Source: a virus
UHGV virus genome: UHGV-0385766
Strand: one strand, 5' to 3'
Length of the DNA: 27,686 bases
Positions 2,546-20,456 of this stretch are shown here, in pieces. The notes under the pieces were generated by a model that worked only from the letters and a program-made list of their open reading frames with translations, did not search any database and was not told where the DNA came from. The translations under genes and the position numbers were made by a program. Every line of letters begins with the position of its first letter. Positions within the stretch are counted from its first letter, which is position 1.

Positions 2546-3093
2546 TGAGGACGATTGAAGCCATGCAGCGACAACTCCTCGGCCTGATTGGGCGGGCCGT
2601 GGTGAAAAGCATCAGTGCCGCCACGAAATGTCAGACCGTGGATGTGTCCCTGATTGCCGGTGAACCCAAAGCTGGGGTTGAACATCTTGAACCCTACGGT
2701 TTTACCGCAAGGGCAAACAGCGGTGCGGAAGCGGTGGTGTTGTTTCCGGATGGCGACCGTTCTCATGCGGTGGTTGTTACGGTGTCGGACCGGCGCTACC
2801 GCCTGAAAGGGCTGCAGACGGGGGAGGTGGCTGTCTATGACGATCAGGGGCAGTCCGTGACGCTGACCCGGGAGGGGATCGTGGTGGACGGTGCAGGTAA
2901 AACGATCACGTTTCGCAATTCACCTAAAGCACGTTTTGAAATGGACCTGGAAGTGACAGGACAGGTGAAAGACCTGTGCGACTCCAGCGGCACCACCATG
3001 TCAGCGATGCGGCTTGCCTATAACGGGCATCGTCACAGAGAGAACGGTCAGGGCAGTAACACCGACAAACCTGATAAAGCGATGGAGGCATGA
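2545..3093 (+). CDS. Baseplate assembly protein V-like (Mu gp45-like spike)
   Basis: 182-aa ORF; TGATG stop/start overlap at 2543-2547; position and size fit gp45/gpV family. Confidence 0.75.
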   Translation: MRTIEAMQRQLLGLIGRAVVKSISAATKCQTVDVSLIAGEPKAGVEHLEPYGFTARANSGAEAVVLFPDGDRSHAVVVTVSDRRYRLKGLQTGEVAVYDDQGQSVTLTREGIVVDGAGKTITFRNSPKARFEMDLEVTGQVKDLCDSSGTTMSAMRLAYNGHRHRENGQGSNTDKPDKAMEA

Positions 3094-3518
3094 TGGAACT
3101 GTGGCTGACGGTGAACGGTAAACGCACCTGCGCCAGCGCACCGCTGGATCCGCTGACCCGCGCCGTGGTGATTTCCCTGTTTACCTGGCGGCGGGCGGAG
3201 CCTGATGACAACGCCGACGTCCCGATGGGATGGTGGGGGGATACCTGGCCTGCGGTACAGAATGACCGTTACGGCTCCCGACTGTGGCTGCTTCAGCGCA
3301 GCAAACTGACCAATCAGCTGGTGCAGACGGTAAGGGGGTATATCCGCGAATGCCTGCAATGGATGATTGATGATGGCGTGGTGTCCCGTATTGATCTGGA
3401 TATCCGCCGCACCGGGATTAATGAACTGGGTAACAGTATCACTCTCTGGCGTCGTGACGGACCGGTAATGATTTCTTTTGATGATCTGTGGAGTGCGATA
3501 ACGCATGGCGGACAGTGA
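3090..3518 (+). CDS. Mu gp46-like baseplate protein
   Basis: 142-aa ORF; ATGA overlap with upstream gene; conserved position between gp45-like and baseplate J-like genes. Confidence 0.7.
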   Translation: MMELWLTVNGKRTCASAPLDPLTRAVVISLFTWRRAEPDDNADVPMGWWGDTWPAVQNDRYGSRLWLLQRSKLTNQLVQTVRGYIRECLQWMIDDGVVSRIDLDIRRTGINELGNSITLWRRDGPVMISFDDLWSAITHGGQ

Positions 3519-4563
3519 ATTTCAGCGCCCGACGCTGGCAGAAAATATCAGTATGCTCCGTAACGATTTATTCGCCAGGCTGGACGTCAGCGACACGCTC
3601 CGGCGCATGGATGAAGACGTGCGGGCAAAGGTGTATGCGGCGGCGCTGCATACGGTTTACGGGTACATCGATTATCTGGCAATGAACATGCTGCCTGACC
3701 TGTGCGATGAGTCCTGGCTGGCGCGACATGCTGCGATGAAACGGTGTCCGCGCAAGGGGGCCACGGCTGCCAGCGGGTATATGCGCTGGGAAGGTGTCAG
3801 CGATGGCCTGAAGGTGACCGCCGGGAGTGTTATTCAGCGCGATGACCTGGTTCAGTACACGGCAACTGCCGATGCAACCAGCACTGGTGGTGTCCTGCGT
3901 GTGCCGATCGCCTGCTCAAGTGCAGGCGCGGTCGGTAACGCTGACGACGGTACGGCATTAATCCTGGTCACGCCGGTGAATGGTCTGCCGTCTTCCGGTG
4001 TGGCTGACACCCTGACAGGCGGATTTGATACTGAAGAGCTGGAAACGTGGCGCGCCCGCGTCATTGAGCGGTATTACTGGACGCCTCAGGGCGGGGCTGA
4101 CGGGGACTATGTCGTCTGGGCTAAAGAAGTGCCCGGCATTACCCGCGCATGGACATACCGACACGGGATGGGAACGGGGACTGTCGGTGTGATGATTGCC
4201 AGCAGTGACCTGATTAATCCCATTCCGGAAGAGTCAACGGAAACGGCGGCAAGACAACATATCGAGCCACTGGCCCCGGTGGCAGGCTCTGATTTGTATG
4301 TATTCAGGCCGGTGGCGCATAAAGTGGATTTTCATATCCGCGTGACGCCGGACACACCGGAAATACGGGCTGCCATCACCGCCGAGTTGCGTTCGTTCCT
4401 GCTGCGTGATGGTTATCCGCAGGGAGAACTGAAGGTGTCACGTATCAGTGAAGCGATTTCCGGTGCGAACGGGGAATACAGCCATCAGTTGCTTGCCCCG
4501 GCGGACAATATCTCCATTGCAAAAAATGAGCTGGCGGTTCTGGGGACGATTTCATGGACGTGA
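3505..4563 (+). CDS. Baseplate J-like protein (Mu gp47-like)
   Basis: 352-aa ORF overlapping upstream stop by 14 nt; size and order typical of the Baseplate_J family. Confidence 0.8.
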
Positions 4564-5138
4564 CAAACGATGATTATATCCGTCTGTTGTCGGCACTGTT
4601 GCCGCCCGGTCCGGCGTGGTCAGTCAGCGATCCGGCGATTGCCGGTGCGGCACCGTCATTAACCCGCGTTCATCAGCGTGCGGATGCCCTGATGCGGGAG
4701 CTGGATCCGCGCACCACCACTGAACTGATAAACCGCTGGGAGCGTCTGTGCGGTCTGCCGGATGAATGTATTCCCGCAGGGACACAGACCCTTCGCCAGC
4801 GTCAGCAACGGCTGGATGCGAAGGTTAATCTGGCGGGCGGCATCAATGAGGATTTTTATCTTGCACAGCTTGCTGCCCTGGGCAGACCAGACGCCACTAT
4901 CACGCGATACGATAAAAGCACGTTCACCTGCTCATCGGCCTGTACTGACGCAGTGAATGCGCCGGAATGGCGGTATTACTGGCAGGTCAACATGCCAGCC
5001 GCCACCAACACCACCTGGATGACATGTGGCGATCCCTGTGATTCCGCACTGCGTATCTGGGGCGACACCGTTGTCGAGTGCGTGCTTAACAAACTCTGCC
5101 CTTCGCATACCTACGTAATTTTTAAATATCCGGAGTAA
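4554..5138 (+). CDS. Mu gp48-like tail protein (DUF2313 / YmfQ-like)
   Basis: 194-aa ORF overlapping the J-like stop; position immediately before the tail fibre gene. Confidence 0.75.
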
Positions 5139-5141
5139 TCC

Positions 5142-5822
5142 ATGCATCGTATAGACACGAAAACCGCGCAGAAGGATAAGTTCGGCGCGGGTAAAAACGG
5201 TTTTACCCGTGGTAACCCCCAGACTGGCACGCCTGCCACCGATCTGGATGATGACTACTTTGACATGTTGCAGGAAGAACTTTGTAGCGTTGTTGAGGCA
5301 TCCGGTGCCAGTCTGGAGAAGGCGCGGCACGACCAGCTGCTTACCGCGCTTCGTGCGCTGCTGTTAAGCCGCAAGAATCCGTTTGGCGATATCAAATCGG
5401 ATGGCACTGTGCAAACGGCTCTCGAAAACCTTGGTTTGGGAGATCTCGGGACAGCATCTGGCCGTAATGTCGGTAATACTCAATCGTTTGAAATACCTGA
5501 TATGAGTTATTTCCAGCTTACAGGGAAAGGCTCTGACAATCTGTTAGCTAAACTTCCCAATGGTTTAATCATCCAGGTCTTTCGGCGTAGGCTTGCCAAC
5601 TCAACATCAATTGGTATGCCGACAACAATCCCTGTCACCTATCCGACACCGTTCCCGACGAATATCTGGGGTGTTTTCTGCACAAAGGCAACTTATGCGC
5701 AAGTTGTGACGTCATGCGAATCAGTCACAGCAACAGGTTTCAATGCCGTAACTTGCTTAACGTCAGGTACGAGCCCCGACTCTAATCTTTCTGACGCTTA
5801 TTTTTTTGCTATTGGATATTAA
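5142..5822 (+). CDS. Tail fibre protein (short; conserved N-terminal anchor, divergent low-GC C-terminal part)
   Basis: 226-aa ORF; N-terminus [21 protein letters not shown] resembles enterobacterial prophage tail fibre N-termini; C-terminal half is visibly more AT-rich. Confidence 0.7.
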
Positions 5823-5824
5823 TT

Positions 5825-6307
5825 ATGACAACTAAAAATGAAGACAAGACTCTTCCGGAGCCGCCCCGCATTCATGGTTTTATCTGGGATGTAAATAATG
5901 TGCGGCTGCTGGCTTATGCACTCCAGACTGAATATCAGGAAAGTGGCATGTGGCCTGAGAATGGTATTGATGTTTCTGATGAGGTATCAGCCGAATTTAC
6001 CGGACAGCCACCGGAAGGAAAAACTATTGGTGTGGGGGATGACGGGATGCCTGCTTGGGTGGATATACCACCACCAACACATGAGGAACAGATTGCTGCA
6101 GCCGAACTGGAAAAGCAGCAATTGATTAATCAGGCTAACAATTATATGAACAGTAAACAATGGCCTGGTAAAGCGGCTATTGGTCGTCTGAAAGGTGAGG
6201 AACTGTCTCAATATAATTTGTGGCTGGATTATCTTGACGCACTGGAAATGGTCGATACTTCCGGCGCTCCGGATATTCAGTGGCCGGAAGAACCAGACAC
6301 AATGTAA
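5825..6307 (+). CDS. Tail fibre assembly protein (chaperone)
   Basis: 160-aa ORF directly after the fibre gene; acidic Tfa-like protein; low GC. Confidence 0.75.
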   Translation: MTTKNEDKTLPEPPRIHGFIWDVNNVRLLAYALQTEYQESGMWPENGIDVSDEVSAEFTGQPPEGKTIGVGDDGMPAWVDIPPPTHEEQIAAAELEKQQLINQANNYMNSKQWPGKAAIGRLKGEELSQYNLWLDYLDALEMVDTSGAPDIQWPEEPDTM

Positions 6308-6310
6308 GCG

Positions 6311-6354
6311 AAAAAGAAAAACCGCAGCCACGACATATGCAGGACGTGCTGCGG
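6311..6354 (-). terminator. Intrinsic terminator of the int-dinI transcript
   Basis: Stem CCGCAGC(C)ACG (6322-6332) pairs with CGTGCTGCGG (6345-6354) with one bulge; on the minus strand it is followed by TTTTTCTTTTT (complement of 6311-6321). Confidence 0.45.
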
Positions 6355-6422
6355 CTGGCTGGCGAACTTTCGATAGTGCGAGTATTGAATGATTTCCAGC
6401 CGTTACCGATTTTACGTGTTAA

Positions 6423-6671
6423 TTAGTGAACAAACCACTCGTCAGCAGATTCCCAGGTATCTTTCAGAGTCTCCTGAACAAAAGTTTTTGCAGAATCCTT
6501 ATCTGCGATGCGTGTAACAGAAAGGCCATCGTTGCTGGTGGCTTTTACGAGCACCTCTACATCGTCATAACGTTTACTGATGCGTCGGGTTAATTCTTCC
6601 TTTAACGCATCCACAGCACCGGTTGGCATTTTAGTCATTTTTTCTTTGGCTATGCAGATTTCAATACGCAT
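6423..6671 (-). CDS. dinI: DinI-like protein (DNA damage-inducible protein I family)
   Basis: 82-aa ORF; [11 protein letters not shown]...[11 protein letters not shown] matches the DinI N- and C-terminal signatures from memory; GAGGG Shine-Dalgarno 6 nt upstream of ATG. Confidence 0.75.
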
Positions 6672-6684
6672 AAAAGTCCCTCTA

Positions 6685-6704
6685 TACTGTGTTTGTATAC
6701 AGTA
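6685..6704. promoter_or_regulatory. LexA (SOS) box, near-consensus
   Basis: TACTGTGTTTGTATACAGTA: CTGT-N8-ACAG with TA flanks, 14 bp upstream of the dinI-like start codon. Confidence 0.55.
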
Positions 6705-6712
6705 TTATTTTT

Positions 6713-6732
6713 AACTGTATGGATAAACAGTG
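6713..6732. promoter_or_regulatory. Second LexA-like box
   Basis: AACTGTATGGATAAACAGTG: CTGT-N8-ACAG, ending at the int stop codon. Confidence 0.4.
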
Positions 6733-7830
6733 TCAAGAGGTCTTATTCCTGCTCCTTTGGAGCTCTTCAAAACGATTATGTAAAGATTTCGGATACAGTT
6801 CGGTATATACCTGCCATAGCACGTTTAATGAACGATGCCCTGTAACCTGGGCTACTTCCTCAATACTAAAACCAGCCTCAAATAAGCGACTTGCCCCTTC
6901 TCTACGCAAATCATGGTATCGCAGATCCTTAATACCTAATTTGCTTCTTACCCTCTGAAATCCCGCAGTAACAGAAGTGCTGTTATATGGAAAAATGAAT
7001 TCCGATTTTTGGGGCTGTCGTTGGACGATATCCCAGGCTTCCCCAAGCAAGGCTACTTTCATGTGGTTGCCTTCCTTTTTGCGTGGATCTTTCCTGTCTC
7101 TTACGAGTATAGATTTTTGTTCCTGGTCGAGATCTTCCCATCGTAACCGGCATACTTCTCCGATTCGCATACAGGACCACACAGAAAATTTGAGGATATC
7201 AACGAACGGAATTTTTGAGCATTTATGAGTAGATCGTTGTTGAAGGCCTTCAATGAGCATGTCCAGTTCATCAGATGCTGGTCTACGATTACGACGGTTT
7301 GATTTACCAATCAAACCAAGTTTAAGTAGATATGGACGAGCACTTTTCGCCGGGTTTGATGTGTAATTAATTCCGTATACAGGTTTGGCCGCATCCAGAA
7401 CACTGCCAAGATAACTAACATCGTGGCTGACTGTTGCTGGACCTGCACCAGCGTTGTTTCTTAGCCTGCAATGTTCAATTACGTCATTTTCTGTCAGTTC
7501 AGATAGTTTGATCGCGGATATGTCACTATCCATAAGCAGTTCCAGCACATATCTTTTAGTACGGCCAGCTTTACCTCCAGCATTTGGGTCATTTAAATAT
7601 TTGTGTAGTAAGTCACGGACTGTAAGTCCGTCAACTGCATTTGATGATGGAATGCCATATAGATCTAATTCCATCACTTTCTGTGTGCCCCATGTTTTGG
7701 CATGAGCATGTTTAGGGAATGTTTTGCTTTCCCTGTAAGTGATAACACCTTTTTCTTTGATAATTACATTACAGCGATAGCGTGGTGTGCCATCGGATTT
7801 TAGTCGTTTCTCTATGTTATAGTACGCCAT
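6733..7830 (-). CDS. int: Tyrosine integrase (phage integrase family)
   Basis: 365-aa ORF; C-terminal catalytic region HDLRREGASRLFEAGFSIEEVAQVTGHRSLNVLWQVYTELY carries the R...HxxR...Y pattern. Confidence 0.9.
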   Translation of the reverse strand: MAYYNIEKRLKSDGTPRYRCNVIIKEKGVITYRESKTFPKHAHAKTWGTQKVMELDLYGIPSSNAVDGLTVRDLLHKYLNDPNAGGKAGRTKRYVLELLMDSDISAIKLSELTENDVIEHCRLRNNAGAGPATVSHDVSYLGSVLDAAKPVYGINYTSNPAKSARPYLLKLGLIGKSNRRNRRPASDELDMLIEGLQQRSTHKCSKIPFVDILKFSVWSCMRIGEVCRLRWEDLDQEQKSILVRDRKDPRKKEGNHMKVALLGEAWDIVQRQPQKSEFIFPYNSTSVTAGFQRVRSKLGIKDLRYHDLRREGASRLFEAGFSIEEVAQVTGHRSLNVLWQVYTELYPKSLHNRFEELQRSRNKTS

Positions 7831-8225: not shown

Positions 8226-8765
8226 ATGAATCCGTTTAACGCCATTACTTTTGCTGCATTGTGCGGGCCTCTGGCTTGTCCTGCTGCTATGGCGCAGGAG
8301 TTCATCATCCAGCCAGCCCCTGTGATTGCTAAACCTTTTGAGTACTCTCCTTCTGTTGAGGAATTCTCACGCAAAATGGAAGAGGGTAAGGAGATCTTGC
8401 AAAAGTTAACAATTGCAGCAGATGACTACTATATCTGTTTGATTGATCTTAATAGCCAAGATGCTCGCGAGTTTGTTTCCAAAAACGGGACAGATACGAC
8501 AGAGGCATGCGAAATGTTCCTGCGTGCTTTTGAAGAAGAAGTGAAGCGTACAATTGAATCGCCTCTGCCTGAATTTATCAGGTCAGAACTGAAGGTTTAC
8601 TGGCGTCATATTGCTAAAGCTCGCTCATCTGTCACTCGCCTTAACAATTACATAAAGAGCATATTTAAAGAAACTGTTACTTTTAGCGGGCGCGCGGATC
8701 TTGCTGGAATTGCAGCACTAGCTAGTCACACATCAAATAAGCTAAAATCGATGCAATTTCACTAA
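8226..8765 (+). CDS. Hypothetical 179-aa protein with weakly hydrophobic N-terminus; first gene of cassette
   Basis: ORF with GAGG Shine-Dalgarno 5 nt upstream of ATG; low GC; no family recognised; N-terminus MNPFNAITFAALCGPLACPAAMAQE may be a signal peptide. Confidence 0.7.
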   Translation: MNPFNAITFAALCGPLACPAAMAQEFIIQPAPVIAKPFEYSPSVEEFSRKMEEGKEILQKLTIAADDYYICLIDLNSQDAREFVSKNGTDTTEACEMFLRAFEEEVKRTIESPLPEFIRSELKVYWRHIAKARSSVTRLNNYIKSIFKETVTFSGRADLAGIAALASHTSNKLKSMQFH

Positions 8766-8781
8766 CCGATAGCGGACGACC

Positions 8782-9216
8782 ATGCATCTAGAAGTCTCTA
8801 TTAATCCAGAAACTAGAGCTGAATTTTTTGATGAAGTTTTTCTCAAATTCCCGGAGCTAGAGTCTTCTATCATTGATGATTTCAAGAGATACAAAGCAAC
8901 CGGTGAGCTTCCGCATTATTTCGGTAGGGACGTTGCGTATACTCAGCCTTATGGTGCTTTTCGGGCTGGGTTGATGCATATCCATCTTTGTCTACCGCCA
9001 AATAAGTTTCCCGAGAAACTTCCACAACCGGATAGGGTCTGCAAGAAAGGTGATCCTGATAATGATGCTTGTCTTGTGTATGTCCAAGGTGAGCTTTATG
9101 AGAATAAATATTCACTCATTGCTATTATGTATCCCGATGCACATGAAAAAGCAAGAAAACATGATGTGATGAGCTATCTGGCGCGAATTGCCCAGAATTA
9201 TAAAGATGAAAACTAA
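8782..9216 (+). CDS. YafO-family toxin-like protein (putative ribosome-dependent mRNA interferase)
   Basis: 144-aa ORF 16 nt after the upstream gene; pattern DF..YK..G.LP..FGRD...HIHL...FP...LVY.QG...LIAI..P..H..AR matches my recollection of E. coli YafO. Recognition is from memory, not an alignment. Confidence 0.55.
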   Translation: MHLEVSINPETRAEFFDEVFLKFPELESSIIDDFKRYKATGELPHYFGRDVAYTQPYGAFRAGLMHIHLCLPPNKFPEKLPQPDRVCKKGDPDNDACLVYVQGELYENKYSLIAIMYPDAHEKARKHDVMSYLARIAQNYKDEN

Positions 9217-9551: not shown

Positions 9552-10124
9552 TCATAATTCTGTGCTGGTGGCAGGAATTAATTTCTGCCAGATAGCGGAA
9601 ACATATTTTGCCTGATGACGGGCATCGGCCAGGGCGTTGTGCCGTTCGCCATCGAAAGGCATGTCCATTTTTGGGTCGAATCCGATGGAACGCCCAAGCG
9701 TAACGATCGTGCGTACATCGTGGTCATTCCAGTATGCCCACGGGCAGATTTGTCCTGCTCGCTCATAAGCTCCACGTAAAATTACGTTGTCGAAGGTGGC
9801 CCCGTTACCCCAGACTTTTAAATATTTCGTATTGGCTGCGTGCCGGTTAATGAAATGATTTAGTTCTGAGAGAGCATCGCTGATCGACAAAGTATCATCA
9901 ATACAGATTGCAGCTCGTGCTTCAGGGCTTTGTTTCAACCACCACAGGATGGTATCGCCGTCAGGTGTAGCTCCTTGCCCCATAGCACTTTCCAGGCTAA
10001 CAACCGTATAGAATTCTTGTCCGATGTATCCGGTTTCTGGAGTGAAGAACAGCGCGCCAATGGAAACGATCGGTGCATCCTTATTTTTCCCCATCGTCTC
10101 AAGGTCGATCATTAAGTTGTTCAT
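9552..10124 (-). CDS. 3'-5' exonuclease (DnaQ-like fold)
   Basis: Start MNNLMIDLETMG at 10124 with AGGAGGTGA Shine-Dalgarno and ATGA overlap with the upstream stop; DxE exonuclease motif; the track ORF extends to 10178 as an N-terminal artefact. Confidence 0.7.
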   Translation of the reverse strand: MNNLMIDLETMGKNKDAPIVSIGALFFTPETGYIGQEFYTVVSLESAMGQGATPDGDTILWWLKQSPEARAAICIDDTLSISDALSELNHFINRHAANTKYLKVWGNGATFDNVILRGAYERAGQICPWAYWNDHDVRTIVTLGRSIGFDPKMDMPFDGERHNALADARHQAKYVSAIWQKLIPATSTEL

Positions 10125-10801
10125 CACTTCACCTCCTGCGGCGGTTCTGGTAGAGGCATCCAATTGATTACATCGCATTCAGGTATGCTGATATCATCAC
10201 CAAGCCACCCTTGACCTTCAGACCAGCATTGCACGTAATACCCGTATTCTGTGTTCACTACGCACCACTGCGCGTCGTTCGGCATTCGCTCACTACAGCT
10301 TATCCAACCATCCGGAATTACCGGAGAGTTGCCACCGGGAATATTTTCCGGAATATTTTGTTGTGCGTTTTGTGGTTGTTCGGATTTACCCTGAAGCATG
10401 GCGGCGCAGCAGGCGTTCCATGAAATTTCCTGAAGGGAACGACGAATCTGTGTGCTGCATATACTCCTCCCTGACTCCTGGCTGTTAAACCATGTTTCAA
10501 ATTCCGGCACTACTGGTGCTGGTTGGGTGGTGACATTGGCAAAGGCTGCACGCACCCCGGCCTTAATTTCCTCTACCTCATCAGCACCTGGCGATGAATC
10601 TGACAGTGCGTGATGGAATGCGTAAGCCATGTCGTCGTTGATTTCTACAGGCACACTATCAGCCTTGCGGCGCTCCTGTAGCTCGCGCAGAGCCGCTACA
10701 ACATAATGGCTATTGTGCTGGTCAGCCCACAGAATGAGCCGAATCAACGTTGCATTTGAAACGTATTCGTCTGTTAGTTTGCTATTGGTAAAAGTCGTCA
10801 T
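10124..10801 (-). CDS. DUF551 domain protein
   Basis: 225-aa ORF; Trp/Cys-rich C-terminal domain GWISCSERMPNDAQWCVV... typical of DUF551; start overlaps the HNH stop (ATGA at 10798-10801). Confidence 0.65.
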   Translation of the reverse strand: MTTFTNSKLTDEYVSNATLIRLILWADQHNSHYVVAALRELQERRKADSVPVEINDDMAYAFHHALSDSSPGADEVEEIKAGVRAAFANVTTQPAPVVPEFETWFNSQESGRSICSTQIRRSLQEISWNACCAAMLQGKSEQPQNAQQNIPENIPGGNSPVIPDGWISCSERMPNDAQWCVVNTEYGYYVQCWSEGQGWLGDDISIPECDVINWMPLPEPPQEVK

Positions 10802-12756: not shown

Positions 12757-13335
12757 TCATTCCTTAGCCTGCAACTGCTTCTTAACCAGTTTGCGTAGAT
12801 GTGCCACAGCCATGGAAAGAGTTTCCACCGCTCGTTTATCCAGCTGTGGGGACAGAGACGCCAGTTCGTTTATTGCGATCTGAATACCATGCTCCGCCGC
12901 CAGCGTCGCGCGATTGCTCTCCAGTTCAGCAATACGATTACTTCCATCCGAGATAACACCTTCGTAATACTCACGCTGCTCGTTGAGTTTTGATTTTGTC
13001 TCCTCAAGCTCAACACGCAGCTTCCCTACCGTTAGCGCAATTTCCTCGTTCTCCTGGTCGCGGCGTTTGATGTATTGCTGGTTTCTTTCCCGTTCATCCA
13101 GCAGTGTCTGCACTAATTTAGGGTTGAAAGCTGCGATAAATTCTGCGTTGTTCTCTGCATTTTTCTGGCCGTCAAAGCCAGGCCATTTGATAATGTCTCC
13201 GCAACGTTCATCCCCCGGCGTATGCACCGCATATGTACCAGTGTCCGGCGAGATGAATGCACGCCATTCGCCCTGTGTTGCCTGTTGCGCTATCTTACGT
13301 AAGGTAGCTAATTGTTCGCTGGTAAAAGTCATCAT
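12757..13335 (-). CDS. Ea22-like early protein with coiled-coil C-terminus
   Basis: Start MMTFTSEQL at 13335 overlapping the upstream stop (ATGA); motifs GEW and NAEFIAAFNP shared with the adjacent paralog. Confidence 0.6.
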   Translation of the reverse strand: MMTFTSEQLATLRKIAQQATQGEWRAFISPDTGTYAVHTPGDERCGDIIKWPGFDGQKNAENNAEFIAAFNPKLVQTLLDERERNQQYIKRRDQENEEIALTVGKLRVELEETKSKLNEQREYYEGVISDGSNRIAELESNRATLAAEHGIQIAINELASLSPQLDKRAVETLSMAVAHLRKLVKKQLQAKE

Positions 13336-13685
13336 GGTTGCATCTCCCGTTCTTCTGCCCACTTCCGAAGCCCTTCAATCTCACCATTACGAGCTATCAG
13401 CTCGCGACACAGTCTTTCGTTTTCATCCAGCAGCGCCAGCACGGTAGCTGGATTGGCTGCGGCGATGAATTCAGCATTGGCCTGCTGTTCTATTTGGAAA
13501 TCTTCATCGAAACCGCTTTCAGGATGCGCTCCTTCAATTCTGCAAATGGGAATATATCCAGCAGCCTCGCGATGAATTAGCGCATCATCACCATCAAATC
13601 GGCCCTCTCCATATTCGAGCGACCACTCGCCACACGTTGCTTTTTCTGCCTTAGCACGCAGTGCCTGATAGTCAATCTTGCTCAC
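13332..13685 (-). CDS. Ea22-like early protein (paralog)
   Basis: 117-aa ORF; motifs CGEW and NAEFIAAANPATVLALLDE parallel the neighbouring gene. Confidence 0.6.
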   Translation of the reverse strand: MSKIDYQALRAKAEKATCGEWSLEYGEGRFDGDDALIHREAAGYIPICRIEGAHPESGFDEDFQIEQQANAEFIAAANPATVLALLDENERLCRELIARNGEIEGLRKWAEEREMQP

Positions 13686-14161
13686 TGGTTGCCTCCTTTG
13701 CGAAGCTGGTCGGCGAACAAACGTACACCAGACGCTTCACTGCGTAGAAACTTAACGGCATAATCAAAACCACCTCGTTCTGCGTCGTCTGCTACGTTGT
13801 CGAGGTTATCTGCGTACATCTCTACCCCCTGCGCCCGTACTTCAGCCAGGAAAGCATCGGTTGCTGGGGTGTCTGATTGCATAGACTTTGCGCGATAGTC
13901 ATTCCACCCTCTTGCATACATGGGATTAACTTGCACTCCATCTTTTACACAATATGCCTGCCCTCCACGGTTGATAACCTCGATTTCGTCCATAGCGCCA
14001 GACTTCAGCCCCGCATTCTCCGCTGCCAGCGTCTCGCATTTAGCTTCAAGCGCGTCGAACTTACGTACCAGGTACTCAGCATTTGTTTCGTTCACTTTCA
14101 GATCTCGCGGTACACATTTCCCGCGAAGAAACCCTTCCATTTCGAAAACATTCATGCGCAT
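13682..14161 (-). CDS. Hypothetical early protein
   Basis: 159-aa ORF; alternative start at 14155 would overlap the upstream stop as ATGA; no family recognised. Confidence 0.55.
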   Translation of the reverse strand: MRMNVFEMEGFLRGKCVPRDLKVNETNAEYLVRKFDALEAKCETLAAENAGLKSGAMDEIEVINRGGQAYCVKDGVQVNPMYARGWNDYRAKSMQSDTPATDAFLAEVRAQGVEMYADNLDNVADDAERGGFDYAVKFLRSEASGVRLFADQLRKGGNQ

Positions 14162-14688
14162 TTGCGTAACTCCGATAACTCGTTAAAACGTTCCATAAAC
14201 ATCCCGTAGGCATGGCCTGGTGACAGTGGAATAACTTTGAGCATCTCTGTTGCCGGGATACCTTCCAGTACTGGCCAGAAAGAGCCATCATCAAGCCCGA
14301 GATCGCGGCGTTCGGTTGCCAGCATGATGAGATCGGCATATTTCACAGGCGTGCTCATAACCGGGGGTAACCCGTATTTCTCACGGATTACGGCGTCTAT
14401 TTTTTCTTCCATCCGTTTATAGTCAGGAAGAAGGCGTTTCAGTGGAGCGGGAATATCCTGGCAATACGCTTCTGTTGCATCATGCATTAACGCTTCAAAA
14501 GCAAATTCCTGCGGCACCAGCTGGCTGCAAAGCACCGCATGCTGGGCGACACTGTAGAAGTGTGAAAGATGTCCTGCAAAGCGACAGATATTTGAAAGGG
14601 AAACCGCGATATCGTTAATCACGATGTCGTCTTTATTTATCTTGTCATAATAAAAATGCTTCCCGGAAAAAGTTTTAATAAATGACAT
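14152..14688 (-). CDS. HD-domain phosphohydrolase (YfdR-like 5'-deoxynucleotidase)
   Basis: Start MSFIKTF at 14688 with GGAGAA Shine-Dalgarno; H...HD metal-binding motifs (FAGHLSHF...MHDATEAY); follows YfdP/YfdQ-like genes as in the CPS-53 prophage yfdP-yfdQ-yfdR order, as I recall it. Confidence 0.7.
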   Translation of the reverse strand: MSFIKTFSGKHFYYDKINKDDIVINDIAVSLSNICRFAGHLSHFYSVAQHAVLCSQLVPQEFAFEALMHDATEAYCQDIPAPLKRLLPDYKRMEEKIDAVIREKYGLPPVMSTPVKYADLIMLATERRDLGLDDGSFWPVLEGIPATEMLKVIPLSPGHAYGMFMERFNELSELRKCA

Positions 14689-14782
14689 TTTGTTCTCCAC
14701 GTTATATGCGCTGCACCGCGCTGAATTCGGGTAAAAGGAATCCCGCACCATCCGGCGATTATTGAGTTAATTACGTTTCCAT

Positions 14783-14804
14783 AAATGCCCCCGCAGGGGC
14801 ATTT
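14783..14804 (-). other. Perfect 9-bp stem-loop between the YfdQ-like and YfdR-like genes
   Basis: AAATGCCCC-CGCA-GGGGCATTT; no strong U-tract downstream on the coding strand, so it may be a partial terminator or stability element. Confidence 0.4.
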
Positions 14805-14816
14805 GCAGTAATGAAA

Positions 14817-15641
14817 TCAGGCGGTGAAAGTACCAATAAAGGTTTCTACTTTGCTGTCTTTGAATTTCTCAACAAGCAGATCACGAAATTCGTTAGCCAT
14901 TTCTTCCTGCACTGCTTCCAGCTGAATAATGCGCAGAACCAGTACAGGACGATCGCCAGTGATAATGCTGAGGCGTAATTTAAACGGACGTTCTTTCAGG
15001 CCTTCAACCGGAACGCATTTAAATTCAAATGCCACTGGCATAATGTCTTTGGTCTTCGCTTCGACAGATTCCATCAGGGAGCGTTTGCCGCTGAAGTCAT
15101 TATCTTCAAAATCAGCGGTCTGGTTTGCTTCAATCGTGATTTTACGGACTGCCGCAGCCGCTTTGGTTGCCTGAATGGTGTCACCATTAGCATCAAAGCC
15201 CACAAGGTAGTCGGCCCAGTCTTCAATCCATTCTGCCAGTGACTTCTGGGAGTTACGCTCGCCATTAACAGACAACAGAGCAGAAAACGGTGCTGTCTTT
15301 TTCAGTTTGAGAGTGGCGGTGTTATCTGCGTGACCTGGTTCATCAATAGTACCCAGGTTAAGCACACTGACGGCTCGCATATTATCGGCATCGATAAAGC
15401 AGCGGGTGCCTTCATCTGCAAGATCTTTAGAATAACGGGTAAAGTCATCGATGCAGGCAGTGGAAAGCGCACCACGGAAACGGAAGCGATTTAAATTAAA
15501 TTTTTCCAGATCATGAATGCGGAAATTCTCAGGCAATGCCACAGCATCGGCACCAATCTTACTGATAATTTCATTAACACCCTGAGCAGAAATAAGGGCA
15601 TGGATTTGATTAATTGCGGTTGCGTCTAAGTTCTGAGACAT
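14817..15641 (-). CDS. YfdQ-like protein (DUF2303)
   Basis: 274-aa ORF with GTGAGGA Shine-Dalgarno; size and neighbours match the prophage YfdQ family as I recall it. Confidence 0.6.
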
Positions 15642-15706
15642 AATAAGTCCTCACTATATTAAGATATTCAGTGATGAGATAAATAATCAGTTAATTAAGA
15701 ACGATA

Positions 15707-16069
15707 TTAATGACCTGCTGCGCGGAGTTTTCCGTCAGGTTCACCGGCAAGAGTCAGTAATTGTCCCTGGTCTTCCTGCAGAATAGTCAGGCGACCACCG
15801 CGATTGACATACATCGGCGTTTCGGTGGTGTCTTCTTCGGAAATTTTCCCGCGGTTAGTTGGGCGAACATATGAGAGTTTGTGTTTGATTTTCACACGGT
15901 TCTCATCAAACGGTTCGATTTCCAGATTGAGTGAGACCTTCCCTTTGGTTTTCGTGTTCATCACACCGGAAGCGACTTCACTGAGAACTGCGCCGATTTT
16001 GGTTTCAAATACGCCGCCGTCCAGCTCCCCGATAAATGCCTGCACATCAGTACTGCGTTCGCTAGCCAT
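15707..16069 (-). CDS. YfdP-like protein
   Basis: Start MASERSTDVQ at 16069 with GAGGAG Shine-Dalgarno (120 aa); the track ORF extends to 16255 via a TTG start over a structured leader. Confidence 0.5.
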   Translation of the reverse strand: MASERSTDVQAFIGELDGGVFETKIGAVLSEVASGVMNTKTKGKVSLNLEIEPFDENRVKIKHKLSYVRPTNRGKISEEDTTETPMYVNRGGRLTILQEDQGQLLTLAGEPDGKLRAAGH

Positions 16070-16117
16070 TTTGCTGCTCCTCATCATATCGACCCTGCAA
16101 GGTCGGTTGGTTTCTCC

Positions 16118-16250: not shown

Positions 16251-16510
16251 GCCAAAGCAGTGGCTGTTGTGGTGACCGGTGCTGATCTCCGGCTTGCGGT
16301 TATTTCAGACTCTCACGGGCGTTTAATTGCCCCGCCGAACAGCTCTTTTCCGCAATAGCTGCAATGTCTTTCGCGCATCAGCCTGCGCATTCACCACAAC
16401 GCTAAGGATTCTCTCTGGTTGAAAATACTTAGCTGTTATGTGCCTGTCTTTTCACCACTTCAGGCTCGGTGGTATCTTGGTGTTTTCATATAGCCAAGAA
16501 GGAAATAGTT

Positions 16511-16702
16511 ATGACCAAAGAAGAAAAAATTCTTTATTTATTCCAACTATCGGTTAAGACTCACACTGCATATCAGACTGCTGCCATGACATCAGATAAA
16601 AATTACAGTACGTCAGAAAACCCGATAGACGACATAAGCAAGCTTTACGATAAGTTCGAAGCACTACTCGATAAAAAGTTTGCTGAGGCTGGGCTTGAGT
16701 GA
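16511..16702 (+). CDS. Hypothetical small protein (63 aa), opposite in orientation to the surrounding operon
   Basis: ATG at 16511 with AAGGAAA Shine-Dalgarno 7 nt upstream; the 3' end overlaps a convergent minus-strand ORF by 39 nt. Confidence 0.4.
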   Translation: MTKEEKILYLFQLSVKTHTAYQTAAMTSDKNYSTSENPIDDISKLYDKFEALLDKKFAEAGLE

Positions 16703-16929: not shown

Positions 16930-17133
16930 TTAACCTCCAGATTTCCGCGCATCTAAAGGCGCATTCTCATTTGGTGTGAACTGAATAGTTGTGCTGATAT
17001 TGATTAATGCCCAGACACACAAGACTACGCACTCAGAGCAGATAGCAACTTCATCTTTTCCGCCTTTGGCGATGATTTTTTTTGCCTGCAGCTCGTTTGC
17101 GCCACAAAACGAGCATGTGAAATAACGGTTCAT
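16930..17133 (-). CDS. Small zinc-ribbon protein (CxxC...CxxC), first gene after pL
   Basis: MNRYFTCSFCGANEL...ICSECV; alternative upstream ATG at 17151. Confidence 0.55.
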   Translation of the reverse strand: MNRYFTCSFCGANELQAKKIIAKGGKDEVAICSECVVLCVWALINISTTIQFTPNENAPLDARKSGG

Positions 17134-17243
17134 TTGCGCTCTCTTACACATAGTATTTAACGAATCATCCGGTCATTCATACGCCACCGGCGGCTACTTC
17201 GTGGGCGTCCTGCCTGTTCGTTACTGCAACATCTTTAAGTTGT

Positions 17244-17272
17244 AATCTAGTTGTTGTTTTGGTTGTTGTCAA
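17244..17272 (-). promoter_or_regulatory. pL-like leftward early promoter
   Basis: On the minus strand: TTGACA (complement of 17267-17272), 17-bp spacer, TAGATT (complement of 17244-17249). Confidence 0.5.
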
Positions 17273-17466: not shown

Positions 17467-18153
17467 TTACCAAGTGCGCGATGACCAGAATACTCTACCT
17501 ATAACGTGAATTCTGGAACGCCTATCTTCGAAGGTGAGTATTTCATCTGGATACTCATCTTTATTGAAACTTCTTAGAATCAGACCACCGTCAGGTAAAT
17601 TGATCAATATTTTAACTCTAAGTAATACGCCATCACGTATGGCATAAAGATCCCCATCACGAATAGGAACCGTTTGGGAAACATCAACAGCAACAAAATC
17701 TCCATTGTTAAGTACAGGTAGTAAACTATTGCCCCAAATTTTTACGATCTTTGCATTGGAGACACATACACCAGCTTTTCTTAAATCAATCCTTCTTAGC
17801 GGGAACCAGTCTACAGTTGATTCAACTATTTCAGCCAAACATCCATTACCCGCTGATAACTCGACATCTAGGACTGGAATGTTTGCAAAAATGTCAGGAT
17901 CTAATGCTGTACTTTCAGCCTCCTTTACAACAAGGTCTGGGAAAGACGCGTTATCCTCAATGCCCAATTGCAACCACTTTTGAGAAACCCCTAACACTTT
18001 AGCAATCTCTTTAATTTTCCGAGGCTGTTGAGTTTCTCCATTCTCGATTTTCGCTACGGATTGTTGTGAAAGCCCAATTTTTTCAGCTAGTTGCGCCTGA
18101 CTCATTCCTGCTTTTTCTCTTTCGCTTTTTAGTCTTTCTGCCAATGTTTTCAC
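17467..18153 (-). CDS. cI: CI-like repressor (N-terminal HTH, C-terminal S24 LexA-like peptidase domain)
   Basis: GTG start with GAGGGGG Shine-Dalgarno; HTH QAQLAEKIGLSQQSVAKIENG; Ala-Gly site (SAGNG) and Ser/Lys dyad region (GNSLLP ... LRVK). Confidence 0.9.
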   Translation of the reverse strand: MKTLAERLKSEREKAGMSQAQLAEKIGLSQQSVAKIENGETQQPRKIKEIAKVLGVSQKWLQLGIEDNASFPDLVVKEAESTALDPDIFANIPVLDVELSAGNGCLAEIVESTVDWFPLRRIDLRKAGVCVSNAKIVKIWGNSLLPVLNNGDFVAVDVSQTVPIRDGDLYAIRDGVLLRVKILINLPDGGLILRSFNKDEYPDEILTFEDRRSRIHVIGRVFWSSRTW

Positions 18154-19454: not shown

Positions 19455-19507
19455 AGGTCGGTCATGAGCCTGTTAATGACATCCCAGCCCATTGTGATAA
19501 ATCGTGA
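19295..19507 (+). CDS. Hypothetical protein (70 aa), TTG start
   Basis: AAGGAGA (19281-19287) 7 nt upstream of TTG 19295; protein-like composition. Confidence 0.4.
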
Positions 19508-20456
19508 TCTTGCATGCCGTATTGGTCTGAATGAGGCAATTGTGTTGCAGCAGCTTCATTACTGGCTGAATGAAACGAATTCAGGCACTGAGCATGGCGG
19601 AATTCGCTGGGTTTATAACACGACAGAACAGTGGCTGGAGCAGTTTCCGTTCTGGTCAGAGTCCACTCTGAAACGCACATTTGCAAGCCTGAAATCACTT
19701 GGGGTTTTGCGTCGCGAGCAACTCAATAAATCGAAGCGTGACATGACCAACTTCTACACGATCAACTATGAAAGTGAGCTTTTAGAAGAGGTCAAAGTGA
19801 ACGAATCCATCAGGTCAAAATGCACTTCTCCATCGGGTCAAAGTGACCTGATGGATGGGCGCAAAATGATACGATCCATTGGTTCAAAACGACACGCTGT
19901 CATCGGGTCAAAATGGCCCAATGATCTTACAGAGAATACAACAGAGATTACTACAGAGAATAAAACCTCTTCTCGTCCGGACGCTTCGCAACCGGACACG
20001 CAGACGGCTGAACAGGAGTTTTTAACTCGCCATCCTGATGCGGTTGTATTCAGTCCTAAAAAGCGCCAGTGGGGAACGCAGGATGATTTGACCTGCGCAC
20101 AGTGGCTCTGGAAAAAAATCATCGCCCTGTACGAGCAGGCCGCCGAATGTGACGGCGAGGTGGTTCGTCCCAAAGAACCTAACTGGACAGCCTGGGCAAA
20201 CGAAATTCGCCTGATGTGTGTGCAGGATGGTCGTACTCACAAACAAATCTGCGAGATGTACAGCCGCGTCAGCCGCGATCCGTTCTGGTGCCGTAACGTG
20301 CTCAGTCCGTCGAAGCTGCGGGAAAAATGGGATGAGCTTTCCCTGCGCTTATCGCCGTCCGTCAGCACATACACAGAAAAACGCGAAGACCCGTATTTCA
20401 AATCCAGTTACGACAACGTGGACTACAGCCAGATCCCGGCAGGATTCAGGGGGTGA
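19464..20456 (+). CDS. Replication initiator (lambda O-like, iteron-containing)
   Basis: 330-aa ORF with GAGG Shine-Dalgarno; contains iterons and an AT-rich segment in its middle, as in lambda O. Confidence 0.75.
   Translation: MSLLMTSQPIVINRDLACRIGLNEAIVLQQLHYWLNETNSGTEHGGIRWVYNTTEQWLEQFPFWSESTLKRTFASLKSLGVLRREQLNKSKRDMTNFYTINYESELLEEVKVNESIRSKCTSPSGQSDLMDGRKMIRSIGSKRHAVIGSKWPNDLTENTTEITTENKTSSRPDASQPDTQTAEQEFLTRHPDAVVFSPKKRQWGTQDDLTCAQWLWKKIIALYEQAAECDGEVVRPKEPNWTAWANEIRLMCVQDGRTHKQICEMYSRVSRDPFWCRNVLSPSKLREKWDELSLRLSPSVSTYTEKREDPYFKSSYDNVDYSQIPAGFRG
19806..19966 (+). repeat. Origin of replication: iterons plus AT-rich unwinding element
   Basis: TCCATYRGKTCAAARYG-type iterons starting at 19806, 19829, 19875 and 19900, with a degenerate copy near 19852 (about 23-bp period); then ACAGAGAWT at 19929, 19941 and 19953 (12-bp period) in AT-rich sequence. 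Confidence 0.6.

What the first reader, a model, noticed from the sequence alone, without database searches (positions are those of the whole stretch)
14152..16069. YfdP/YfdQ/YfdR-like triad including an HD-domain 5'-deoxynucleotidase
Three consecutive leftward genes match, by size, order and motifs, the yfdP-yfdQ-yfdR block that I recall from the E. coli CPS-53 prophage. The third carries H...HD metal-binding motifs of HD phosphohydrolases. A phage-borne nucleotidase together with two conserved proteins of unknown function could act on the nucleotide pool or on modified nucleotides, for example as a counter-defence or in superinfection control. The biological role of the triad is, to my knowledge, undefined.
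Basis: partly seen in the sequence, partly recalled or inferred. Interest (0 to 1): 0.5.

Follow-up and report, generated by a model that had tools for sequence, protein, structure and literature searches.

The report
Known prophage yfdP-yfdQ-yfdR early-gene block
These three leftward genes are 98-99% identical to the E. coli K-12 prophage genes yfdP, yfdQ and yfdR, an annotated and very common early-gene block of lambda-like phages whose HD enzyme is already reported to bind the host replication initiator DnaA; what the comparison adds is that yfdP-yfdQ is the strictly conserved pair and yfdR a frequent but optional neighbour.

Summary
Window 14152-16069 (minus strand) encodes YfdR (178 aa), YfdQ (274 aa, DUF2303) and YfdP (120 aa). 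They are 98%, 98% and 99% identical to the CPS-53 proteins of E. coli K-12. The block sits in the early-left operon of an SfV-like lambdoid prophage. At least 80% of the query is found in 2436 of 5426 complete E. coli genomes. It is already annotated and partly studied. Noguchi & Katayama (2016) showed that YfdR binds DnaA domain I. They also showed that multicopy yfdQ + yfdR + (yfdS or yfdT) blocks oriC initiation, and that yfdP is dispensable. A 2025 paper already calls the cluster common in lambdoid early-left operons.

The triad is not one indivisible unit. YfdP lies directly upstream of YfdQ in 78 of 80 genomes and in six distant phages. YfdR is adjacent in only 54 of 79 loci, and it also occurs alone in unrelated phages. 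A structurally conserved hairpin follows yfdQ. YfdQ and YfdP match no known fold. A Xanthomonas-phage YfdQ is deposited in the PDB (9o7m, 36 chains), with no paper found.

The counter-defence idea has no support. The finding is already known, with low to moderate interest. What YfdP-YfdQ does remains open.

The parts
15707..16069 (-). yfdP (120 aa). First gene of the conserved pair. The AlphaFold2 model has a long N-terminal helix, a three-stranded antiparallel sheet and a conserved tail that is modelled as disordered.
14817..15641 (-). yfdQ (274 aa, DUF2303). Second gene of the conserved pair.
14783..14804 (-). GC-rich stem-loop AAATGCCCCUGCGGGGGCAUUU, starting 13 nt after the yfdQ stop codon. 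It marks the joint between the yfdP-yfdQ cassette and yfdR. It is probably a weak intrinsic terminator or an mRNA 3' stabiliser.
   Evidence: Read directly from the sequence. Fold -18.2 kcal/mol, z -2.1. A stem of at least 9 bp occurs at the same place in 60 of 71 distinct loci, against 4.4% of shuffles, with many compensatory stem variants and whether or not yfdR follows. The window copy lacks a run of 5 U and was not called by the terminator scan.
14152..14688 (-). yfdR (178 aa). HD-domain phosphohydrolase (5'-deoxynucleotidase) that also binds DnaA.
   Evidence: 98% identical to K-12 YfdR. phrog_318 E 4e-111. Relative with a solved structure: 2gz4 (Atu1052), E 1.6e-12. H50, H69, D70, E73, D78 and D119 are invariant in 57 sequences. 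DnaA binding and weak nucleotidase activity are published for the K-12 protein (PMC4776307).
13682..14161 (-). Chimeric gene after yfdR. Residues 1-45 are YfdS-like and the rest is unrelated (Eae-like, phrog_614). This is the left edge of the mosaic block shared with K-12.
   Evidence: BLASTP gives 43/45 identical to the YfdS N-terminus, then no similarity. tblastn finds no YfdT and no YfdS C-terminus in the window, and DNA homology with K-12 ends at 14037. phrog_614 E 2e-49.
16070..16088 (-). Ribosome-binding region of yfdP and right edge of the mosaic block. Homology with K-12 stops here, and the K-12 SrsR-box regulatory spacer is absent.
   Evidence: Alignment with the K-12 yfdO-yfdP spacer. 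blastn extent. The SrsR-box search gives no more matches than chance.
17244..17272 (-). pL-like sigma-70 promoter candidate (TTGACA, 17 nt spacer, TAGATT). It lies just left of the cI-type repressor gene and probably drives the leftward early operon that contains the block.
   Evidence: Consensus scan, 10 of 12 matches. Repressor 17467-18153 has HTH plus Peptidase_S24 domains. This is a consensus match only, so function is inferred.

Best explanation
The locus is the yfdP-yfdQ-yfdR block of CPS-53/SfV-type lambdoid phages, and it lies in the early-left (pL) operon of an SfV-like prophage. It is made of two separable cassettes.

Cassette 1 is yfdP-yfdQ. It is an obligate two-gene unit that ends in a conserved stem-loop. 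Its products have no known fold. YfdQ probably builds a large oligomer (inferred from the 36-chain PDB entry). Its conserved placement next to ssb, exonuclease and single-strand-annealing genes suggests that it acts on phage or host DNA replication and recombination intermediates early after induction (inferred).

Cassette 2 is yfdR, an HD-domain 5'-dNMP phosphohydrolase with an intact catalytic H/HD/D set (shown by sequence). The virtually identical K-12 protein binds DnaA domain I at Phe46 and competes with DiaA and DnaB (published).

The most likely role in the phage life cycle is host take-over. On derepression, YfdR, helped genetically by YfdQ, damps DnaA-dependent helicase loading at oriC, and its nucleotidase activity trims the dNMP pool. 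That this is the native function is an inference from over-expression experiments.
For: Identity: 98-99% protein identity and one 2052-bp DNA block shared with K-12, plus RefSeq annotation in thousands of genomes.

Position: the block is leftward of a cI/S24 repressor and a pL-like promoter. It is followed by Ead/Ea22, DUF551, HNH and 3'-5' exonuclease genes and then int.

Published function: YfdR binds DnaA. yfdQ + yfdR + (yfdS or yfdT) inhibits initiation in vivo, and extracts inhibit it in vitro. yfdP is dispensable (PMC4776307; cited as such in PMC12122000).

Two-cassette structure:
- YfdP is directly upstream of YfdQ in 78 of 80 genome loci.
- The same holds in Xanthomonas, Vibrio, Pseudomonas, Psychrobacter, Acinetobacter and Stx2a-type phages.
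- YfdQ and YfdP hit 184 and 180 phage records with the same host breakdown. YfdR hits 324 records with a different one.
- YfdR is adjacent in 54, displaced in 6 and absent in 19 of 79 loci.
- Distance matrices correlate at r 0.80 for P-Q, against 0.59 for Q-R. Eight locus pairs have near-identical P and Q but more than 25% diverged R, and none shows the reverse.
- A conserved hairpin follows yfdQ.
- RegulonDB-style 'yfdPQ operon' usage appears in PMC9181523.

DNA-metabolism context of yfdP-yfdQ: gam-recT-exo-ssb-P-Q in Ss-VASD. P-Q-x-x-ERF-x-YqaJ-SSB in MET23-P3. YqaJ-DnaQ-P-Q-SSB in a Vibrio phage. SSB lies directly after Q in Proteus and Hahella prophages.

YfdR catalytic residues are invariant.
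Against: The replication-inhibition phenotype comes only from multicopy expression. Deleting yfdQRST had no effect on initiation, and the authors themselves allow that it may be an artefact.

The K-12 minimal set needs YfdS or YfdT. The window has only the first 45 residues of YfdS and no YfdT.

YfdQ did not bind YfdR or DnaA in pull-downs. yfdP-yfdQ occur without yfdR in a quarter of loci, so their core role cannot depend on YfdR.

The DNA-metabolism role of yfdP-yfdQ rests on gene neighbourhood only. No DNA-binding fold or motif was found.

The oligomer inference rests on a chain count in a PDB entry for which I found no paper.
Confidence: 0.55

Rival explanations
1. YfdP-YfdQ is an accessory of phage homologous recombination or recombination-dependent replication. 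It would be a ring- or filament-forming factor that binds ssDNA or DNA ends and works alongside SSB, exonuclease and the annealing protein. YfdR would be an unrelated neighbour.
For: yfdP-yfdQ lies within 0-3 genes of ssb, exonuclease and annealase genes in three unrelated recombination systems: RecT/Exo, ERF/YqaJ and YqaJ/DnaQ. SSB follows Q directly in several prophages. A yfdQ deletion is weakly MMS- and H2O2-sensitive (cited). The PDB entry has 36 chains, and ring or filament assembly is typical of annealing proteins (my own knowledge).
Confidence: 0.25
2. The triad is a counter-defence or superinfection-control module in which the HD enzyme destroys signalling or modified nucleotides, helped by YfdP and YfdQ.
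For: The genes are expressed early. HD-superfamily enzymes include cyclic-nucleotide phosphodiesterases (my own knowledge). YfdR has low affinity for ordinary dNMPs, so its true substrate may be something else. YfdQ and YfdP are acidic (pI 5.0 and 5.7) and of unknown fold.
Against: No experimental or comparative evidence supports it. YfdR's closest relatives are YfbR- and Atu1052-type monophosphatases, and phrog_318 is labelled a dNMP phosphatase. yfdP-yfdQ and yfdR are inherited independently, which argues against one three-part machine. YfdR homologues in other phages sit between DNA ligase and DNA polymerase genes. There are no PADLOC matches.
Confidence: 0.08
3. The block is a lysogenic-conversion or stress-tolerance cargo that benefits the host (H2O2, acid and MMS tolerance, or control of other prophages) rather than a lytic-cycle function.
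For: Deleting CPS-53, and yfdQ or yfdS singly, increases H2O2, acid or MMS sensitivity (cited). In K-12 the host regulator SrsR binds the yfdO/yfdP spacer and yfdPQ mRNA is detectable. YfdQ over-production triggered plaque formation by another phage in a preprint. The block is retained in 45% of complete E. coli genomes.
Against: In the window and in intact phages the genes lie inside the repressor-controlled early-left operon, with no promoter of their own detected. The K-12 SrsR-box spacer is specific to the deleted CPS-53 remnant and is absent here. yfdP-yfdQ also occur in phage genomes where no integrase or repressor was seen in the stretch examined. The phenotypes are weak.
Confidence: 0.1

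Closest known systems
E. coli K-12 CPS-53 (KplE1) yfdP-yfdQ-yfdR-yfdS-yfdT cluster (Noguchi & Katayama 2016, PMC4776307) and SfV orf29-31
   Same: Same three genes in the same order and spacing. Protein identity is 98-99%, and one 2052-bp block has 97.3% DNA identity. The YfdS N-terminus begins in the same way, overlapping the yfdR stop.
   Different: Here the block sits in an apparently intact early-left operon, downstream of a repressor and pL region. In K-12 it sits next to the yfdO remnant with SrsR boxes. The YfdS C-terminal DUF551 part and YfdT, one of which was needed for the K-12 phenotype, are missing.
E. coli YfbR, the HD-domain 5'-deoxyribonucleotidase (Zimmerman et al. 2008, as cited in PMC4776307), and A. 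tumefaciens Atu1052 (PDB 2gz4)
   Same: HD fold and the H...HD...D metal ligands, plus the Glu after the HD motif. The K-12 YfdR is reported to hydrolyse dNMPs.
   Different: It is not an orthologue. PF12917 scores 24 bits, below the 25.9 cut-off, and the NCBIfam equivalog scores 19.6 against 122. Much lower nucleotide affinity is reported, together with an additional DnaA-binding activity.
Other proteins that bind the initiator DnaA and block initiation: lambda P (domain III) and B. subtilis SirA, Dps and DiaA (domain I)
   Same: A phage or stress-induced protein binds the host initiator and lowers oriC firing. YfdR uses the same DnaA Phe46 surface as DiaA and DnaB.
   Different: There is no sequence or fold relation. 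YfdR is an enzyme-type HD protein. It needs YfdQ and a third small protein genetically, and the effect has been seen only on over-expression.
PDB 9o7m 'YfdQ Protein' (Xanthomonas phage CP2/MET23-P3-type DUF2303 protein)
   Same: Same family over the full length (profile E 9.8e-59, about 37-39% identity), and the gene has its own yfdP homologue directly upstream.
   Different: It comes from a Xanthomonas phage whose yfdP-yfdQ pair is followed by ERF, YqaJ and SSB genes and has no yfdR. I found no publication, and the entry is not in the fold libraries available here, so its architecture beyond '36 chains' is unknown to me.

Membership tests
YfdQ family / DUF2303 (PF10065) | Full-length match to the Pfam model above the gathering score | tested here: met
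   300.2 bits against a cut-off of 26.6, residues 7-272 on model positions 2-269 of 269. 98% identical to K-12 YfdQ.
YfdP family (phrog_204; PF27127 as precomputed label) | Sequence match to the family and to the K-12 protein that names it | tested here: met
   119/120 identical to K-12 YfdP. phrog_204 E 1.2e-49. Homologues carry PF27127 in the database. The local Pfam copy returned no match for YfdP.
YfdP-YfdQ pair | A yfdP homologue directly upstream of yfdQ on the same strand, 37-80 nt apart | tested here: met
   In the window the intergenic gap is 65 nt. 78 of 80 genome loci show the arrangement, and the two exceptions are partial YfdQ matches (residues 113-274 only; one begins at base 8 of its contig). 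All six distant phages have the pair.
HD-domain metal-dependent phosphohydrolases | H...HD...D metal-binding residues | tested here: met
   H50, H69-D70 and D119, plus E73 and D78, align with 2gz4. They are invariant in 57 sequences.
YfbR-type 5'-deoxynucleotidase (PF12917 / NCBIfam PRK03826 equivalog) | Score above the curated family cut-offs | tested here: not met
   PF12917 scores 24.0 bits against 25.9. PRK03826 scores 19.6 against 122. It is a YfdR-type relative (phrog_318, E 4e-111), not a YfbR orthologue.
YfbR-type 5'-deoxynucleotidase | dNMP phosphatase activity | not testable with these tools
   Reported for K-12 YfdR, with low affinity (Zimmerman et al. 2008, as cited in PMC4776307). 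The window protein differs at 4 of 178 residues.
YfdR as a DnaA-domain-I binding initiation inhibitor | Direct binding to DnaA (Phe46-dependent) and competition with DiaA and DnaB | not testable with these tools
   Shown for the K-12 protein. For the window protein it is inferred from 98% identity, and all four substitutions lie in residues 150-169.
K-12 minimal initiation-inhibiting gene set (yfdQ + yfdR + yfdS or yfdT) | Presence of an intact yfdS (DUF551) or yfdT next to yfdR | tested here: not met
   Only YfdS residues 1-45 are present, fused to an unrelated C-terminus. There is no YfdT match in the window. A DUF551 domain exists elsewhere (10124-10801), but BLASTP shows no significant similarity to YfdS (best E 0.54).
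Rad52/Redbeta/RecT/ERF-type single-strand annealing proteins (considered for YfdQ) | Shared fold or family match | tested here: not met
Known anti-phage defence systems (PADLOC-DB) | Match of any of the three proteins or their neighbours to a defence-system model | tested here: not met
   No matches at E <= 0.01 for nine proteins.
Intrinsic (rho-independent) terminator (considered for the hairpin after yfdQ) | GC-rich stem-loop followed by a U-run | tested here: inconclusive
   The 9-bp GC-rich stem is present and structurally conserved. The window copy is followed by AUUUAU only and is not called by the scan. The Morganella and Hahella copies have clearer T-runs.

The most novel reading that the evidence does not exclude
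YfdP-YfdQ is a widespread two-protein phage machine that has not yet been characterised. The YfdQ (DUF2303) family alone has about 1800 clusters at 50% identity, and the pair is found across gamma- and beta-proteobacterial phages. It has a new fold and forms a very large oligomer. It would carry out a distinct early function on DNA, for example protecting or organising replication and recombination intermediates or controlling host replication. YfdR and other neighbours would be exchangeable effectors plugged in behind a conserved terminator-like joint.
Probability: 0.3. Interest if true: 0.55.

Novelty: already known. Interest (0 to 1): 0.3.

Why it matters
As found, the locus is an ordinary, annotated component of E. 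coli prophages. The useful results are a correction and a pointer.

The correction is that the unit to study is the yfdP-yfdQ pair, not a three-gene machine. About half of sequenced E. coli carry it, and so do phages of Vibrio, Xanthomonas, Pseudomonas, Acinetobacter and others. It has no known fold or function.

The pointer is its fixed position beside ssb and recombination genes, together with the existence of a 36-chain solved structure. These make the question of what it does directly approachable.

For YfdR, the open question is whether DnaA binding is the native phage function, namely shutting down host initiation when the prophage is induced, or only an over-expression effect.

Tried and rejected

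(3) Finding the paper behind PDB 9o7m. Full-text searches for the entry code, YfdQ, DUF2303 and the family accessions found nothing relevant.

(4) Testing whether 9o7m also holds a YfdP-like chain or the downstream 401-aa protein of the Xanthomonas phage. No PDB matches were found.

(5) Domain fusions as a clue to function. All but a few short fragments among the top 150 DUF2303 representatives are stand-alone proteins of roughly 250-300 aa. The few P+Q 'fusions' among E. coli hits cover only parts of both proteins and look like deletions or frameshifts.

(6) Known RNA elements in the 860-nt gap upstream of yfdP and around the hairpin. Rfam gave no matches, even at E <= 1.

(7) K-12 SrsR boxes upstream of yfdP. 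They are not present, and the matches are no more than chance.

(8) The first viral-contig scan returned only 99%-identical loci, so it was useless for deep synteny. The genome-contig scan and phage tblastn were used instead.

(9) Reading Zimmerman et al. 2008 directly. The paper is not held, so the enzymology is cited second-hand from PMC4776307.
Full report
**1. What is there**

Window 14152-16069 holds three consecutive minus-strand ORFs.
- yfdR is at 14152-14688 (178 aa). The reading frame stays open up to 14751, but the ATG at 14688 has a GGAG 7 nt upstream and is the start used by PGAP and in K-12.
- yfdQ is at 14817-15641 (274 aa).
- yfdP is at 15707-16069 (120 aa), with a GAGGAG 8 nt upstream of its ATG.

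BLASTP against the K-12 MG1655 CPS-53 proteins gives 174/178, 269/274 and 119/120 identical residues. At DNA level the window and K-12 share a single 2052-bp piece of 97.3% identity, window 14037-16088.

YfdQ is a full-length DUF2303 protein (E 1.6e-89). YfdP, YfdQ and YfdR match phrog_204, phrog_210 and phrog_318. YfdR carries the HD-superfamily ligands H50, H69-D70 and D119. These align with the solved relative Atu1052 (2gz4, E 1.6e-12) and are invariant in the 57 aligned YfdR sequences.

**2. Context**

The window is an SfV-like lambdoid prophage. It has these parts:
- Mu-type baseplate and tail-fibre genes at 141-6307 and an integrase at 6733-7830.
- A leftward early operon running from a pL-like promoter (17272-17244), next to a cI/S24 repressor (17467-18153).
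- In that operon: a ClpX-zinc-finger gene, yfdP, yfdQ, yfdR, a YfdS-like chimera, two Ead/Ea22 genes, a DUF551 protein, an HNH endonuclease and an Rv2179c-type 3'-5' exonuclease.
- A rightward operon with Cro-, CII- and O-like genes, then Dam, RusA, KilA-N, DUF968 and a Q antiterminator.

No canonical Exo/Bet/Gam-type module is present. The best whole-block match is E. coli K-15KW01 at 99.5% identity.

**3. How common and how well known**

The 2.4-kb query is found in 3155 of 5426 complete E. coli genomes, 2436 of them with at least 80% coverage. RefSeq annotates it as yfdP, YfdQ family protein and yfdR 5'-deoxynucleotidase. It also occurs in 58 phage records, including SfV, mEp460, cdtI and the Stx2c phages.

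- Noguchi & Katayama 2016 (PMC4776307) isolated yfdQ-yfdR-yfdS-yfdT as a multicopy suppressor of over-initiation.
[quoted passage not shown] - Extracts containing over-supplied YfdQRST inhibit oriC replication in vitro.
- Deleting the genes had no effect, and the authors allow that the phenotype may be an over-expression artefact.
- The same paper cites Zimmerman et al. 2008 for YfdR being a YfbR-like enzyme with much lower nucleotide affinity.
[quoted passage not shown] It says that yfdQ and yfdP have no known function. It considers them unlikely to be recombination proteins, because phage ArgO145 has the cluster plus a full Rec module.

**4. The triad is really a pair plus an option**

I scanned one genome per species with a YfdQ profile and obtained 80 loci from Enterobacterales, Marinobacter, Hahella, Pontibacterium, Pseudomonas-group bacteria and Comamonas.
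- tblastn places a YfdP homologue directly upstream of YfdQ in 78 of 80 loci. The two exceptions hold only a partial YfdQ match (residues 113-274), one of them starting at base 8 of its contig.
- YfdR is adjacent in 54 of 79 loci with enough flank, displaced by one inserted gene in 6, and absent in 19, including most of the most distant loci.

In the phage collection, YfdQ and YfdP hit 184 and 180 records with almost the same organism breakdown. YfdR hits 324 records with a quite different spectrum (Bacillus, Caulobacter, Rhizobium, Stenotrophomonas and others).

Six distant phages all have a YfdP homologue immediately upstream of YfdQ: Xanthomonas MET23-P3, Vibrio 24E35.2, Pseudomonas LPPA56, Psychrobacter Psymv2, Acinetobacter fJoAci01 and Shigella Ss-VASD. 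The HMM E-values are 1e-26 to 1e-31 for the first four, and tblastn detects YfdP in all six. Only LPPA56 also has a YfdR homologue, one gene further on.

Conversely, YfdR homologues of 44-51% identity in Ralstonia, Burkholderia and Enterobacter phages have no yfdP-yfdQ within 3.5 kb. In the Burkholderia phage the gene sits between DNA ligase and DNA polymerase.

Pairwise distance matrices over 51 loci correlate at r = 0.80 for P against Q, 0.59 for Q against R and 0.51 for P against R. Eight locus pairs have P and Q no more than 10% diverged but R more than 25% diverged, and no pair shows the reverse. So yfdP-yfdQ is inherited as one unit, while yfdR is exchanged independently.

**5. A structural joint**

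Thirteen nucleotides after the yfdQ stop codon lies the palindrome AAATGCCCCTGCGGGGGCATTT (14783-14804). A stem of at least 9 bp occurs at the equivalent place in 60 of 71 distinct loci, against 4.4% of shuffled sequences. The stems differ in sequence but stay complementary: GCCCC/GGGGC, ACCCC/GGGGT, TCCCCG/CGGGGA, GCCAC/GTGGC and GCCGC/GCGGC. The stem is present whether or not yfdR follows.

It looks like a weak, partly bidirectional intrinsic terminator or an mRNA-stabilising 3' hairpin. The window copy lacks a proper U-run and was not called by the terminator scan, so its activity is inferred, not shown. It coincides with the recombination joint implied by section 4 and with the 'yfdPQ operon' usage in PMC9181523.

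The other edges of the mosaic block are sharp as well.
- Homology with K-12 starts 19 nt upstream of the yfdP ATG. The K-12 SrsR-box spacer is absent.
- Homology ends inside the next gene. Its first 45 codons are YfdS-like, and the rest is unrelated.

**6. What YfdP and YfdQ might be**

AlphaFold2 models built with 30-sequence alignments gave these results.
- YfdQ has pLDDT 77. It has a confident alpha/beta core and two low-confidence segments, 1-55 and 171-198. The second contains a strongly conserved motif.
- YfdP has pLDDT 73. It has a long helix, a three-stranded sheet, and a conserved tail that is modelled as disordered.

Sequence search does find one solved relative of YfdQ, PDB 9o7m 'YfdQ Protein', with 36 chains of one sequence. 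That sequence is 98.8% identical to the DUF2303 protein of Xanthomonas phage MET23-P3. I found no paper for it, and no YfdP-like chain is in the PDB. The chain count suggests a very large assembly, and that is all I can say about it.

The DUF2303 family comprises 1829 clusters at 50% identity. The best 150 are almost all stand-alone proteins of about 265-290 aa, so there are no informative fusions. Across 76 diverged members the near-invariant polar residues are E46, R56, T61, Y70, H104 (in a PGH motif), Q132, E140-D141, R166, C209, R223 and E242. This pattern is compatible with either an active site or an assembly interface.

The only consistent functional hint is the neighbourhood.
- Ss-VASD has gam-recT-exo-ssb-P-Q.
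- MET23-P3 has P-Q-x-x-ERF-x-YqaJ-SSB.
- A Vibrio phage has YqaJ-DnaQ-P-Q-SSB.
- SSB lies directly behind Q in Proteus and Hahella prophages.

No PADLOC model matches any of the proteins.

**7. Most likely mechanism**

These points are shown:
- The identity of the genes.
- The early-left position.
- The intact HD catalytic set.
- The obligate P-Q pairing and the independent inheritance of R.
- The conserved hairpin.

These points are published for the near-identical K-12 proteins:
- Weak dNMP hydrolysis by YfdR.
- Binding of YfdR to DnaA domain I.
- Inhibition of initiation by multicopy yfdQ + yfdR + (yfdS or yfdT).

These points are inferred. After derepression, the block serves host take-over and DNA metabolism. 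YfdR lowers DnaA-dependent helicase loading at oriC, as lambda P does by another route. YfdP-YfdQ forms a large complex that acts on replication or recombination intermediates.

There are caveats. The phenotype is known only from over-expression. The window lacks the YfdS C-terminal part and YfdT, one of which the K-12 phenotype required. YfdQ did not bind YfdR or DnaA. yfdP-yfdQ exist without yfdR, so their core function must be independent of YfdR.

I put about 0.55 on this composite statement. The identity and architecture parts are near certain, and the native-function part stands at roughly 0.4.

**8. Verdict**

The homology is right. The 'undefined role' is overstated, the 'triad' is really a pair plus an optional enzyme, and the counter-defence idea is unsupported. 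Interest is low to moderate, because the yfdP-yfdQ pair is very widespread yet has no known fold or function.

Noticed in passing
window 14783-14804 (minus strand); equivalent positions in L083-L162: A GC-rich stem-loop lies directly after the yfdQ stop codon. Its structure is conserved through compensatory changes across genera, with stems of at least 9 bp in 60 of 71 distinct loci against 4.4% of shuffles. It is present whether or not yfdR follows. It may be a weak terminator or an mRNA stabiliser.
   Followed up: partly
window 13682-14161 (minus strand): The gene after yfdR is a chimera. Its first 45 residues are 96% identical to K-12 YfdS, and the remaining 114 are unrelated (phrog_614, annotated 'Eae' in related phages). 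It is a clean mosaic joint inside a coding sequence. Its start overlaps the yfdR stop.
   Followed up: partly
window 19464-20456 (plus strand): A 330-aa protein with no Pfam match. Bases 19954-20334 are 97.6% identical to the K-12 remnant gene yfdO ('defective replication protein O'). No P-, DnaC- or DnaB-type helicase loader or primase was recognised among the rightward-operon genes scanned, so the replication module looks incomplete or unconventional, as reported for phage LLS.
   Followed up: no
window 16469-16702 (plus strand): A small ORF (77 aa as listed, 63 aa in RefSeq; phrog_2605, unknown function) lies antisense inside the leftward early operon. It sits in the 860-nt gap between the ClpX-zinc-finger gene and yfdP, which makes it a moron-like insertion.
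   Followed up: no
window 8226-9216 (plus strand): A YafO-family type II toxin gene (8782-9216, PF13957 E 2e-21) is preceded by a 179-aa ORF without a family match (8226-8765). The pair sits between the integrase and the end of the early-left operon.
   Followed up: no
window 16930-17151 (minus strand): The first gene after the pL-like promoter encodes a 73-aa protein with a ClpX-type C4 zinc finger (PF06689, E 7e-11). It occupies the position where lambda has N.
   Followed up: no
L093 5947-6762, L095 5947-6474, L097 5956-6744, L110 5877-6986: In Serratia, Symbiopectobacterium, Atlantibacter and Acerihabitans prophages, a gene encoding tandem 'TGITSLPEGLSVGGSLDL' repeats of variable copy number is inserted exactly between yfdQ (after the hairpin) and yfdR.
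   Followed up: no
L163 3493-3867; phage records OL762410 and MW822538: YfdP homologues in Xanthomonas and Vibrio phage records are annotated 'translation elongation factor'. This looks like an annotation error that has been propagated.
   Followed up: partly
window 141-7830: Mu-type baseplate genes (DNA_circ_N, GpP, Gp45, Baseplate_J, Gp48), a tail fibre and its assembly protein are followed directly by the integrase. The element is therefore an SfV-like hybrid with a Mu-like tail and lambdoid regulation. G+C drops from about 0.58 to about 0.43 at roughly position 5000.
   Followed up: partly
window 12757-13685 (minus strand): Two adjacent, overlapping Ead/Ea22-like genes (201 and 117 aa) lie downstream of the block.
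   Followed up: no
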